This document shows positions 12,001 to 15,000 of a stretch of DNA of 64,000 bases, in pieces. The stretch is from Escherichia coli. Lineage in GTDB: Bacteria > Pseudomonadota > Gammaproteobacteria > Enterobacterales > Enterobacteriaceae. The DNA lies in the NCBI RefSeq assembly GCF_041248615.1, contig NZ_CP158426.1. One strand, 5' to 3'. Made by a program: the position numbers. Position 1 is the stretch's first letter. Each line of letters starts with the position of its first letter.

Positions 12001-15000
12001 CGATTAAATAATTTCCTAAACTCTTTCCCACTTAAGGTTTTCATTGTATCAATCACTCTGTTTTCATAAAAGCAAAGTCAACAAGATAAAACAATAAAAA
12101 CTCTTACACAACCAGCTGATGTTTTTAAAATAGAGGATAATATAAGACAAGCATAACCTCGTTCACTTCAATGCTACTCCTATCGTTCTTTTGCGTCACA
12201 GAGCGCCTGCCGGACAACTGCATCATAGACCAAACGGAACTGCTTCCGTCGATTAATCAGATGGCAGCGCATAAACACGCTCAACAACCCGTTTGACTGC
12301 TTCAATTTTAAGCTCTTCGGAATAACGCTTACCGTGTAAGTCTCCCTGCAAAACGAGCTATCAACTTTTAAGGAGTCTCTGGCCCCCCTGCTTCCGCTCC
12401 TGGCACACAGCAGCCCTAGAGACAGTGGAGTAAAGTCATGGAGGCTCGGTGGGGAGAGGTGCAAATCCTCCCATACAAAAAATACGAAAATCAGTAACGG
12501 CTAGAAATCATTCAATACATGCACTCTCGAAATTGCATCAGCCAACCGCAAAACGTTATTTCAAAGCCTACTAGCTGCCTTACTTTTTTCCTCAATAACG
12601 CGTCGCCAGCCGGAAACAACCTAATCCCTGTTTTGGGCCTCAAAACCGCTAATGATAATCATTTTCATTTTGTATAGGTTGTGCTATAAAACATAGCCGT
12701 TGCTATGTTTGTTCTAATTTTGCTCACTATAGGTACTAAATTATGCACTCGATAAAAAAAGTAACCATGCTCTTGGGGGGCCTCGCACTCACCTGCTCGA
12801 TCGCATTTCAGGCAAGTGCAACTGAAAAATTCAAGGTCATTACAACATTTACCATCATCGCGGATATGGCCAAAAACGTGGCGGGAGATGCTGCAGAAGT
12901 CTCATCCATAACCAAGCCTGGTGCAGAAATTCATGAGTATCAGCCTACCCCTGGCGATATTAAACGTGCGCAGGGGGCACAACTGATTCTCGCCAATGGT
13001 ATGAATCTGGAATTGTGGTTCCAACGCTTTTACCAGCATCTCAATGGGGTTCCAGAAGTAATTGTCTCTTCGGGTGTGACGCCTGTAGGGATCACCGAAG
13101 GACCCTATGAGGGCAAACCTAACCCCCATGCATGGATGTCGCCAGATAATGCTCTGATTTACGTCGATAATATTCGTGATGCGTTGATAAAATACGATCC
13201 GGCAAATGCACAAACCTACCAACGCAATGCCGATACTTATAAAGCCAAGATTACCCAAACCCTTGCCCCCCTGCGTAAGCAGATTACGGAACTCCCTGAG
13301 AATCAGCGATGGATGGTCACCAGTGAAGGGGCTTTTTCTTATCTCGCACGCGATTTGGGGCTAAAAGAGCTTTATCTGTGGCCGATTAATGCCGATCAAC
13401 AAGGAACACCGCAGCAGGTACGTAAGGTTGTTGATATAGTTAAGAAAAATCATATCCCGGCAGTCTTTAGCGAGAGTACGATTTCCGATAAACCAGCGCG
13501 TCAGGTTGCGCGTGAAACCGGCGCACACTACGGCGGTGTGCTCTATGTCGATTCCCTGAGCACAGAAAACGGCCCGGTACCGACGTATATCGACCTTCTT
13601 AAGGTTACTACCAGTACGCTGGTACAGGGAATTAAAGCTGGGAAAAGGGAGAAATAATGATGCAATCTGCAGGCATTGTCGTTAATGATGTTACTGTCAC
13701 CTGGCGTAACGGGCACACAGCACTGCGCGATGCATCCTTCACAGTACCAAGTGGATCTATTGCCGCTCTGGTTGGGGTAAACGGTTCCGGAAAATCGACG
13801 TTGTTTAAAGCGATTATGGGATTTGTGCGTCTGACCAGCGGAAAGATATCTGTTCTGGGTATTCCCACGCGACAGGCGTTACAGAAAAACCTGGTTGCCT
13901 ACGTCCCTCAGTCAGAAGATGTTGACTGGTCATTTCCTGTACTGGTGGAAGATGTGGTGATGATGGGCCGCTATGGGCATATGGGTATGTTGCGTATCGC
14001 CAAAAAGAGGGATCGTCAAATTGTCACCGATGCGCTGGAACGTGTCGATATGGTGAATTTTCGCCATCGACAAATCGGCGAGCTTTCCGGTGGACAAAAG
14101 AAACGCGTCTTTCTGGCGAGAGCGATTGCACAGCAGGGTGATGTGATCCTGCTGGATGAACCTTTTACTGGCGTTGATGTGAAAACCGAAGCCAAAATCA
14201 TCAGCCTGTTGAGGGAGTTACGCGCGGAAGGCAAAACGATGCTTGTCTCAACACACAATCTCGGATCCGTCACGACATTTTGCGATTATACGGTCATGGT
14301 CAAAGGCACCGTCCTGGCAAGCGGGCCGACAGACACCACTTTTACAGCCGAGAACCTAGAGCTGGCTTTTAGCGGCGTACTGCGCCATGTCACACTTAAC
14401 GGCTCGGAAGAAAGCATTATTACTGACGATGAACGCCCTTTTGTGGCTCATCGACCGTCAGCGGTGCAGAGGGAAGAAAGATGAACGTGCTACTGGAACC
14501 CTTCAGCTATGAATATATGCTCAATGCGATGTGGGTCTCGGCGATGGTCGGCGGTCTCTGCGCTTTCCTGTCATGCTATCTGATGCTAAAAGGCTGGTCG
14601 CTGATTGGCGATGCGTTGTCGCACTCTATTGTCCCGGGTGTTGCGGGGGCATATATGCTGGGGCTTCCGTTTTCTCTGGGAGCCTTCTTTTCCGGCGGAC
14701 TGGCTGCGGGCAGCATGCTGTTTCTTAACCAACGCACCCGCTTAAAAGAAGATGCCATCATCGGTCTGATCTTCTCGTCCTTTTTTGGCCTGGGGCTGTT
14801 TATGGTGTCATTGAACCCGACATCTGTGAACATTCAGACCATCGTCCTGGGCAATATTCTGGCAATCGATCCGGCGGATATCCTGCAACTCACTATCATT
14901 GGCATTCTCTCGATCATCGTGCTTTTTTTCAAATGGAAAGATCTTATGGTGACCTTTTTCGACGAGAATCACGCCCGTGCTATTGGATTGCATCCGGGCA

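What the first reader, a model, noticed from the sequence alone, without database searches (positions are those of the whole stretch)
12180..12480. Probable IS3-family transposase remnant between the orphan gene and sitA
A minus-strand frame reads ...RYSEELKIEAVKRVVERVYALPSD*, typical of an IS3-family OrfA HTH, but it is short and the track ORF here is in another frame. This looks like a decayed IS fragment marking older rearrangement of the cargo region.
Basis: seen in the sequence. Interest (0 to 1): 0.2.

Follow-up and report, generated by a model that had tools for sequence, protein, structure and literature searches.

The report
Dead IS3 scar in phage cargo
The short transposase-like reading frame is a real but dead 154-base leftover of IS3-family jumping genes, sitting in a small cargo cassette of a phage-21-type prophage; the scar is ordinary, but the repeated sites that bracket the cassette may be worth a separate look.

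Summary
The minus-strand frame 12351->12253 reads ...GKRYSEELKIEAVKRVVERVYALPSD*. At the DNA level, 12334->12262 is 86-88% identical to nt 69-142 of intact 1229-bp ISEhe3-like IS3-family elements.

A second piece was missed. 12270->12181, read by the "other-frame" ORF, matches the N-terminal part of OrfB of IS3-group elements.

Nothing else of an IS survives: no inverted repeats, start codon, frameshift site or DDE domain. The 154-bp scar diverges like the non-coding DNA around it.

The window is a complete phage-21-type prophage at icd in a B2 E. coli. Phage 21 itself (isolated about 1960) carries the same scar, and its GenBank annotators called the IS3 similarity "unconvincing".

The scar was not made in this phage. 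It travels with the adjacent 252-aa orphan gene as a ~1.2-kb module. That module also occurs in a Citrobacter island, an ICE and an E. coli CP4-type island (99.6% identical), with further erosion in some copies.

The module is bracketed by two 24-nt palindromic sites, A and B. These sites co-occur and co-orient with a widespread, uncharacterised 200-aa tyrosine recombinase. That link is a hypothesis, not a demonstrated mechanism.

The parts
12253..12351 (-). Only GKRY...A is IS-derived; the end is out of frame after a 1-nt deletion.
12262..12334 (-). IS fragment 1. It corresponds to nt 69-142 of a 1229-bp ISEhe3-like IS3-family element (OrfA codons 3-27, N-terminal half of the HTH). Identity is 86.5-87.8% with one 1-nt deletion. 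The start codon and the first 68 nt (left inverted repeat plus leader) are missing.
12181..12270 (-). IS fragment 2. It is the N-terminal part of OrfB of an IS3-group element (window INRRKQFRLVYDAVVRQALCDAKERIG vs INRRQQFRLVCDNVVREAFSDAKQRYG). Identity is 73-76% nt and 60-64% aa. It has the same orientation as fragment 1 and overlaps it by about 9 nt.
12180..12305 (-). 41-codon ORF annotated as a gene in phage genomes (ev017 gp28; phage 21 CPT_21_30, 'similarity to IS3 transposase B ... unconvincing'). It is an artefact ORF that reads fragment 1 out of frame and fragment 2 in frame.
12335..12391 (-). 57-nt sequence of unknown nature ending ...ACTTACA. It is not the IS leader. It always follows an A site. 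It recurs at 80-98% identity with five different right flanks (Tatumella, Citrobacter MGH106 / a MAG, K-12 CP4-57, plasmid pToe3-1, and here).
12392..12415 (-). Site A: GGCTGCTG TGTGCCAG GAGCGGAA. This is a degenerate copy of the palindrome GTCCGCTC-TGTGCCAG-GAGCGGAC. It forms the left boundary of the cassette and the tail of the conserved lambdoid element.
12416..12563 (-). Conserved lambdoid-prophage element. It is present in 5405 of 5426 complete E. coli genomes and in lambda-like HK630 between ea47 and ea31. It lies upstream of the leftward cargo genes (here sitABCD).
12045..12180 (-). Native upstream region of the orphan gene. It is conserved even in the Mangrovibacter copy, which has no IS scar.
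11286..12044 (-). Orphan cargo gene of 252 aa (ATG at 12044), about 32-36% G+C, PHROG 20520, function unknown. Homologues at 63-88% identity occur in Citrobacter, Klebsiella, Mangrovibacter and an ICE.
11193..11216 (-). Site B: GTCCGCAG TTCGCTCA TAATAGAC. It has the same arms as A but a different 8-nt spacer. It forms the right boundary of the cassette.
11008..11192 (-). Conserved phage right flank of the cargo slot. Other lambdoid prophages that carry different cargo share it (L008, L046).
10662..10829 (-). icd' fragment, the duplicated 3' end of icd at the prophage junction. It shows this is the phage 21 attachment site.

Best explanation
Window 12181-12334 is a non-functional 154-bp scar of IS3-family insertion sequence(s). 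It has two co-oriented pieces: codons 3-27 of the OrfA of an ISEhe3-like element, then about 30 codons from the N-terminal part of the OrfB of an IS3-group element.

Inferred history: an IS, or one IS nested in another, inserted upstream of a 252-aa orphan gene. Illegitimate deletions then removed both inverted repeats, the start codon, the frameshift site and the whole DDE catalytic domain (more than 87% of a ~1.2-kb element). What remained has drifted neutrally.

This happened before the orphan gene reached the phage. Scar and gene travel together as a ~1.2-kb module that sits in the b-region cargo slot of phage-21-type prophages, between sitABCD and the icd attachment site.

Shown: the homology, its extent, the absence of all functional IS parts, co-inheritance with the orphan gene, and neutral-like divergence.

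Inferred: the order of events, and whether there were one or two parental elements. Two is favoured, because each piece is close to a different IS3 lineage and unlike the matching part of the other.
For: - Fragment 1 homology.
- The reference element is a bona fide IS3-family IS. It is 1229 bp, has TGAATCGCCA... inverted repeats and an A7G frameshift motif, and carries HTH_Tnp_1 plus HTH_21/rve/rve_2 domains.
- Fragment 2 homology: tblastn gives 60-64% identity, E 9e-5, on many plasmids inside 'IS3 family transposase' genes at a consistent position. blastn gives 73-76%.
- No other IS part is present. A sensitive blastn of the whole IS against the 64-kb window gives only nt 69-142. tblastn of OrfB gives nothing. 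The leader and downstream regions do not exceed shuffles.
- Decay: five window-lineage changes in fragment 1, visible in the alignment, appear to alter the encoded residue (my manual reading). One frameshifting deletion is shared by all copies. Window vs Citrobacter identity is 83-86% in the scar and other non-coding parts, against 92% in the orphan CDS.
- Erosion series: the full scar is in the window, Citrobacter L011 and E. coli L031. The ICE L014 lacks 12365-12293. K. variicola L012 lacks 12378-12156. Mangrovibacter L013 has no scar.
- The same arrangement is in 740 of 5426 E. coli genomes at >=99%, and in phages 21, ev017 and others.
Against: - The peptide alone is below Pfam's gathering threshold, and fragment 2 alone hits no Pfam model.
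- No intact IS was found at this position in any genome, so the insertion event itself is inferred.
- No target-site duplication or inverted repeat survives to prove transposition.
- The two pieces are collinear and co-oriented, as expected for a single parent with an internal deletion of about 320 bp. The one-or-two-parents question therefore stays open.
Confidence: 0.9

Rival explanations
1. Both pieces come from one unsampled or chimeric IS3-family element that lost about 320 bp internally (OrfA codon ~28 to OrfB codon ~37) as well as both ends.
For: The pieces have the same orientation and are in the order OrfA then OrfB. They abut with about 9 nt alignable to both references.
Against: Fragment 1 is 87% identical to ISEhe3-like elements, whose own OrfB shows no similarity to fragment 2. 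Fragment 2 is 73-76% identical to IS3-group elements, whose OrfA does not match fragment 1 at the DNA level. No element combining both was seen among the hits inspected.
Confidence: 0.3
2. The ORF (12180-12305 or 12253-12351) is a real small gene, for example a domesticated HTH regulator or a phage moron, as phage annotations imply.
For: It is called as a CDS in phages ev017 and 21. The 41-codon frame is open in the window and in the Citrobacter copy (alignment).
Against: The OrfA piece has no start codon and only half an HTH. The scar diverges like non-coding DNA, and the window-lineage changes in the alignment look non-synonymous by manual reading. The region is partly or wholly deleted in the ICE, K. 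variicola and Mangrovibacter copies, whose orphan gene is intact. PGAP does not call it in E. coli genomes.
Confidence: 0.03
3. The scar is retained because it supplies a promoter or regulatory signal for the orphan gene.
For: It lies 125-290 bp upstream of the orphan gene and is co-oriented with it.
Against: The orphan gene's own upstream region (12045-12180) is conserved without the scar in Mangrovibacter and K. variicola. No promoter-like site was found on that strand in 12180-12340.
Confidence: 0.05
4. The resemblance to a transposase is chance.
For: The Pfam score is below the gathering threshold. The phage 21 annotators found the similarity unconvincing.
Against: DNA-level matches have E 1e-14 to 1e-15 against multi-gigabase collections. 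They always fall at the same position of IS3-family transposase genes, and this holds for two independent fragments.
Confidence: 0.01

Closest known systems
ISEhe3-like IS3-family insertion sequences (1229 bp; example L002 1933-3161 on E. coli plasmid pPE131_1; one plasmid hit is annotated 'ISEhe3 orfA')
   Same: Window 12262-12334 is 86-88% identical to nt 69-142, which is OrfA codons 3-27, in the same reading frame.
   Different: Only 6% of the element is present. There are no inverted repeats, start codon, leucine zipper, frameshift site or OrfB/DDE domain, and there is one frameshifting deletion.
IS3-group elements (IS3-like transposase WP_101991095.1 on K. pneumoniae plasmids, L017; decayed copy on Enterobacter soli pENTAS01, L018)
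   Same: Window 12181-12270 matches the OrfB segment just before and at the start of the HTH_21 domain, at 60-64% aa and 73-76% nt.
   Different: Only about 30 codons are present. There is no rve/DDE core and no ends.
Phage 21 b-region ORF CPT_21_30 (GenBank OL657228; Feiss et al. 2022, PMC9119081) and ev017 gp28
   Same: It is the same DNA at 99% identity in the same position: sitDCBA, this ORF, a 252-aa hypothetical, icd', attP, int.
   Different: The annotators noted only a weak, 'unconvincing' similarity to an IS3 transposase B for the other frame. The OrfA piece, the DNA-level identity and the module's wider distribution were not noted in the record or the announcement.
Integron gene cassettes and attC sites; recombinase-mediated cassette exchange with heterospecific lox/FRT sites (comparison from general knowledge)
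   Same: Short cargo units of one or a few genes are bracketed by imperfect palindromic sites. The sites are co-oriented with a tyrosine recombinase gene. The two site types share arms but differ in spacer.
   Different: The recombinase is 200 aa and has no IntI-specific features. There are no R/L boxes (GTTRRRY), no attI and no Pc promoter. The recombinase gene itself sits between a B and an A site. No recombination has been demonstrated.

Membership tests
IS3 family (origin of the DNA) | Sequence homology to IS3-family transposase genes at a consistent position | tested here: met
   Fragment 1 is 86-88% identical to nt 69-142 of ISEhe3-like elements. Fragment 2 is 60-64% aa and 73-76% nt identical to the OrfB N-terminus of IS3-group elements.
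IS3 family (functional element) | Complete OrfA with HTH (HTH_Tnp_1) and leucine zipper | tested here: not met
   Only codons 3-27 are present. Pfam gives 17.6 bits against a 24.1-bit cut-off, covering profile positions 5-22 of 75. The start codon is lost and a frameshift follows codon ~24.
IS3 family (functional element) | OrfB with DDE (rve) catalytic domain, made by -1 frameshift at an A6G/A7 motif | tested here: not met
   There is no rve similarity anywhere in 12041-12420 or elsewhere in the window beyond chance. The reference elements have rve/rve_2 and an A7G motif.
IS3 family (functional element) | Terminal inverted repeats 5'-TG...CA-3' and a 3-5 bp target duplication | tested here: not met
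   IS nt 1-68 and 143-1229 are absent. The alignment of the upstream 86 nt to the IS left end does not exceed shuffles. That upstream DNA is an unrelated unit with its own distribution.
Phage 21-type (Jouyvirus) prophage b region | Lambdoid prophage integrated in icd with a duplicated icd 3' end; sitABCD next to the tail-fibre genes; near-identity to phage 21 | tested here: met
   The icd' fragment, int/xis and intact icd are present. Window 10609-12700 is 99.0% identical to phage 21 and 99.5% to ev017. Gene order is identical.
Integron / attC cassette | IntI-type integrase, attI, and attC with R''-L''/L'-R' boxes (RYYYAAC...GTTRRRY) | tested here: not met
   The recombinase is 200 aa and only weakly Xer/integron-like (NCBIfam 55.8 bits against a 220-bit cut-off). 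It has no close solved relative. The site sequences lack GTTRRRY boxes.
Tyrosine-recombinase core-type site (for sites A and B) | Two inverted recombinase-binding arms flanking a 6-8 bp asymmetric spacer, linked to a recombinase gene | tested here: inconclusive
   The sequence pattern is met: 8-8-8, GTCCGCTC/GAGCGGAC arms, across 41 A and 22 B contexts. Linkage and co-orientation with the 200-aa recombinase are strong: A 40:2 and B 16:1 in 576 kb. Cleavage or strand exchange cannot be tested with these tools.

The most novel reading that the evidence does not exclude
The IS scar is a passenger inside a natural exchangeable cassette. Two 24-nt palindromic sites share the arms GTCCGCTC/GAGCGGAC but have different 8-nt spacers (A: TGTGCCAG; B: YTCGCTCA). 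They bracket one- or few-gene cargo units in three settings: the lambda/phage-21 b region, CP4/P4-type islands, and pathogenicity islands such as CFT073 PAI-aspV.

These would be the substrates of a widespread, uncharacterised 200-aa tyrosine recombinase whose own gene sits between a B and an A site. Because A and B would be heterospecific, cargo could be swapped between any two A...B slots, a natural analogue of recombinase-mediated cassette exchange. That would explain how the orphan-gene cassette is 99.6% identical in a phage and in a CP4-type island, with breakpoints exactly in A and B.
Probability: 0.3. Interest if true: 0.65.

Novelty: already known. Interest (0 to 1): 0.3.

Why it matters
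The scar itself matters little. It corrects a spurious gene call (gp28 / CPT_21_30) in phage-21-type genomes. It also shows that the 252-aa orphan gene reached the phage as a pre-formed module that already carried an IS fossil, which makes the scar a handy lineage marker for that module.

The by-product is more useful. The cargo slot next to sitABCD is delimited by conserved palindromic sites. The same sites flank other cargo, including defence-like genes, in many prophages and islands, and they track a small tyrosine recombinase. If those sites are recombination substrates, they would give a concrete, testable mechanism for moron or cargo exchange between lambdoid phages and genomic islands.

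Tried and rejected
1. IS leader or left end. I first took 12335-12407 for the left inverted repeat plus leader of the parental IS, because the geometry fits (73 nt vs 68 nt to codon 3). This was rejected. The alignment does not exceed shuffles. The same 72-77 nt occurs without any IS in Tatumella, Citrobacter MGH106, a MAG, K-12 CP4-57 and pToe3-1, always ending at ...ACTTACA.

2. Structured RNA. There are no Rfam hits at E<=10 for the window copy or the Tatumella copy. There is no folding signal on either strand (z 0.36 and 0.56).

3. tRNA or tmRNA relic, or an att site in a tRNA. ARAGORN finds nothing.

4. Coding relic in the 57-nt unit. There is no 3-periodicity of substitutions, and the K-12 copy has an indel.

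5. MITE or REP. There are no terminal inverted repeats. It is single-copy per genome.

6. Second site copy in inverted orientation, or a composite transposon. No second copy of the site A motif was found in the window.

7. The lambdoid conserved element as a relic of the small integrase gene. No tblastn or blastn similarity.

8. A further IS-like hit at 61731-61756 lies inside the core gene mnmA and is chance.

9. svsR sRNA of the related NC-SV prophage. It lies at cI, not here.

10. Literature searches for a description of the recombinase and its sites found nothing relevant.
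Full report
**Observation**

The overlapping ORF in another frame is 12464/12305->12180.

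As a peptide the match is weak. Pfam HTH_Tnp_1 gives E 0.0045 and 17.6 bits, below the 24.1-bit gathering score, covering profile positions 5-22 of 75.

The DNA settles it. 12334->12262 matches IS3-family transposase genes at 86-88% identity over 73-74 nt. E is 1e-14 to 1e-15 against 28 Gb of E. coli genomes and 7.3 Gb of plasmids. One hit is annotated "ISEhe3 orfA".

**The reference IS and the extent of homology**

One intact relative, L002 1933-3161, is 1229 bp. It has TGAATCGCCA... terminal inverted repeats and an A7G frameshift motif. Its OrfA carries HTH_Tnp_1 and its OrfB carries HTH_21 + rve + rve_2.

The window holds only nt 69-142 of it, which is OrfA codons 3-27, with one 1-nt deletion. 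A sensitive blastn of the whole IS against the 64-kb window finds nothing else above chance. The 26-nt hit at 61.7 kb lies in the core gene mnmA. Alignments of the upstream 86 nt to the IS left end, and of the downstream DNA to the rest of the IS, do not exceed shuffles.

**A second fragment**

The other-frame ORF is annotated as a gene in phage genomes: ev017 gp28 and phage 21 CPT_21_30. The phage 21 note reads [quoted passage not shown].

Its peptide ...CHLINRRKQFRLVYDAVVRQALCDAKERIG... hits IS3-family transposase genes on many Klebsiella, Enterobacter and Salmonella plasmids at 60-64% identity (E 9e-5), always at the same place. In L017 this is OrfB residues ~38-66 (INRRQQFRLVCDNVVREAFSDAKQRYG) of an IS3-group element. 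At the DNA level, 12270/12263->12181 is 73-76% identical.

The ISEhe3-like OrfB has no similarity to this piece, and the IS3-group OrfA does not match fragment 1. The scar, 12181-12334 (154 bp), therefore consists of two co-oriented, collinear pieces, each closest to a different IS3 lineage. I favour two nested or adjacent elements reduced by deletions. A single unsampled or chimeric parent with an internal deletion of about 320 bp cannot be excluded.

**Evidence that it is dead DNA**

- No start codon, inverted repeats, frameshift site or DDE domain survives.
- In the alignment, five changes are specific to the window lineage in fragment 1. By my manual reading each alters the encoded residue (P->S, F->L, Q->R, D->E, G->V). 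The Citrobacter copy keeps the ancestral states and has its own changes, including an insertion.
- Window vs Citrobacter identity is 86% in fragment 1, 83% in fragment 2 and 83-84% in the other non-coding parts. It is 92% in the orphan CDS.
- The scar is dispensable. An ICE copy lacks 12365-12293, the K. variicola copy lacks 12378-12156, and the Mangrovibacter copy has none. All three keep the orphan gene and its native upstream region.

**Context**

The window is 100% identical to E. coli ATCC 11775 and Nissle 1917 over the 861 bases compared. It contains a complete lambdoid prophage integrated in icd, with an icd' fragment at 10662-10829 and int/xis plus intact icd at about 57-59 kb.

The region is 99.0% identical to phage 21 and 99.5% to phage ev017. 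Both have the same gene order: tail fibres, sitDCBA, this ORF, a 252-aa hypothetical, icd', attP, int. Phage 21 dates from about 1960, so the scar is old and fixed. The same 411 bp occur in 740 of 5426 complete E. coli genomes at >=99%.

Strain 536 has the same prophage slot with other cargo (GNAT, HTH, acetyltransferase) replacing 12392->11142.

**The scar came with the orphan gene**

The orphan protein has homologues at 63-88% identity in Citrobacter, Klebsiella, Mangrovibacter and an ICE.

- In Citrobacter telavivensis, window 12421->11211 is collinear at 89%, including both IS pieces and the shared 1-nt deletion.
- A pattern across the junction found the module 12411/12406->11201 at 99.6% identity with unrelated flanks in metagenome contigs.
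- The same module sits in a CP4-type island of STEC strain 2013C-3181, next to a GTPase/Ag43/DUF905.../CbtA backbone.

The IS insertion and its erosion therefore predate the module's arrival in the phage.

**What lies left of the scar**

12335-12407 is not the IS leader. A genome-wide pattern search found the same 72-77 nt at 86-87% in Tatumella, Citrobacter MGH106 and a MAG, with no IS. Further copies are in K-12 CP4-57 (between yfjW and a DUF905 pseudogene) and on plasmid pToe3-1. All end at ...ACTT(A/C)CA, followed by different DNA.

It has no Rfam match, no fold signal, no tRNA likeness, no coding periodicity and no terminal repeats. It is single-copy per genome. Its nature is unexplained.

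**Sites A and B (beyond the finding)**

The left 24 nt of that unit form a palindrome with the consensus GTCCGCTC-TGTGCCAG-GAGCGGAC (site A). The window copy, 12415->12392, is GGCTGCTG TGTGCCAG GAGCGGAA.

After the orphan gene lies a site with the same arms and another spacer, GTCCGCnn-YTCGCTCA-nnGCGGAC (site B). The window copy, 11216->11193, is GTCCGCAG TTCGCTCA TAATAGAC. In other loci B is followed by a short palindrome and another A.

Homology breakpoints fall in these sites:

| Comparison | Left breakpoint | Right breakpoint |
|---|---|---|
| Window vs CP4-type island module | 12411 | 11201 |
| Window vs lambdoid prophage L008 (other cargo) | 12401 | 11218 |
| Window vs strain 536 | 12393 | (homology resumes at 11141) |

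The tail of the conserved lambdoid element, including lambda-like HK630 between ea47 and ea31, is a degenerate A site.

**The linked recombinase**

In K. variicola, the CP4-type island, Idiomarina and three Proteus contexts, a 200-aa tyrosine recombinase gene is preceded by a B-like half site. It is followed, after a GGGCTG...CAGCCC hairpin, by TGTGCCAnnAGCGGAc.

Across 64 IMG/VR loci encoding this protein or fragments of it (576 kb), my A pattern occurs 40 times on the recombinase strand and 2 times on the other. The B pattern occurs 16 times vs 1.

The protein is 77-98% conserved across Gammaproteobacteria. It is present in 1036 of 5426 E. coli genomes, including CFT073 PAI-aspV. It is annotated only as "site-specific integrase" and is distant from Xer/IntI/FimB models and from any solved structure. 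Neighbouring cargo often looks defence-related: TIR, SIR2, SMC-like ATPase, restriction enzymes.

I found no paper describing this, but my search was limited. That these are recombination sites enabling cassette exchange is an inference from sequence patterns. No activity is shown, and my site patterns were derived from a few loci by eye.

**Verdict**

The finding is correct and ordinary. It is a dead, two-piece IS3-family scar that phage 21's annotators had half-noticed, carried as a passenger in a small cargo module. It does not mark the present boundaries of cargo variation in this prophage. Those lie at sites A and B, which are the one thing here that may deserve follow-up.

Noticed in passing
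window 12392-12415 and 11193-11216; loci L012, L026, L030, L031, L033-L035, L036-L099, L100: Two 24-nt palindromic sites share arms (GTCCGCTC/GAGCGGAC) but have different spacers (A: TGTGCCAG; B: YTCGCTCA). They bracket the orphan-gene cassette here and other cargo elsewhere. They are strongly co-oriented with a conserved 200-aa tyrosine recombinase (A 40:2, B 16:1 in 576 kb of viral contigs). Homology breakpoints between loci fall inside them.
   Followed up: partly
window 12335-12391 (with site A, 12335-12417): A 57-nt sequence ending ...ACTTACA always follows an A site. It recurs at 80-98% identity with five different right flanks: Tatumella, Citrobacter MGH106 / a MAG, K-12 CP4-57 between yfjW and a DUF905 pseudogene, plasmid pToe3-1, and here. 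It has no RNA, tRNA, coding or MITE signature. Its nature is unknown.
   Followed up: partly
window 12416-12563: A conserved ~150-175-nt lambdoid-prophage element is present in 5405 of 5426 complete E. coli genomes (median 3 places per genome). It sits about 210-280 nt upstream of leftward cargo genes (sit here; ea47 in lambda-like HK630; NleG, DGC, R-M and others elsewhere). PGAP sometimes labels part of it as a partial 'capsid protein' pseudogene, which looks like a mis-annotation.
   Followed up: partly
window 12650-12740: The sitA promoter region holds a perfect palindrome, AAACATAGCnnnnGCTATGTTT (12689-12710), which the terminator scan flagged. I recognise it from general knowledge as MntR-box-like. 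An AAATGAAAATGATTATCATT Fur-box-like sequence lies just upstream. Both fit the known Fur/MntR control of sitABCD. Homology to the plasmid-borne sit locus (86%) starts only at about 12551.
   Followed up: no
window 11286-12044: The 252-aa orphan gene is AT-rich (32-36% G+C) and belongs to PHROG 20520 (unknown function). It has no Pfam, NCBIfam or credible PADLOC hit. It is conserved at 63-93% in Citrobacter, Klebsiella, Mangrovibacter, an ICE and E. coli islands, so it is a real gene under purifying selection. The likely start is the ATG at 12044, not the GTG at 12056.
   Followed up: partly
window ~10660-59300: The whole phage-21-type prophage lies inside the window, from the icd' fragment at 10662-10829 to int/xis and intact icd at about 57-59 kb. 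Besides sitABCD it carries iss (bor-like), an ompC-like porin gene, a TonB-family gene and sieB/ral.
   Followed up: partly
strain 536 locus L005 4169-6149 (replaces window 11142-12392): In strain 536 the same cargo slot holds a GNAT acetyltransferase, an HTH protein and a second acetyltransferase instead of the IS scar and orphan gene. Its A site is intact (…TGTGCCAGGAGCGGAC).
   Followed up: partly
locus L018 (Enterobacter soli pENTAS01) 1600-2500: The best DNA match to fragment 2 is itself a frameshifted, unannotated IS3-group pseudogene.
   Followed up: no
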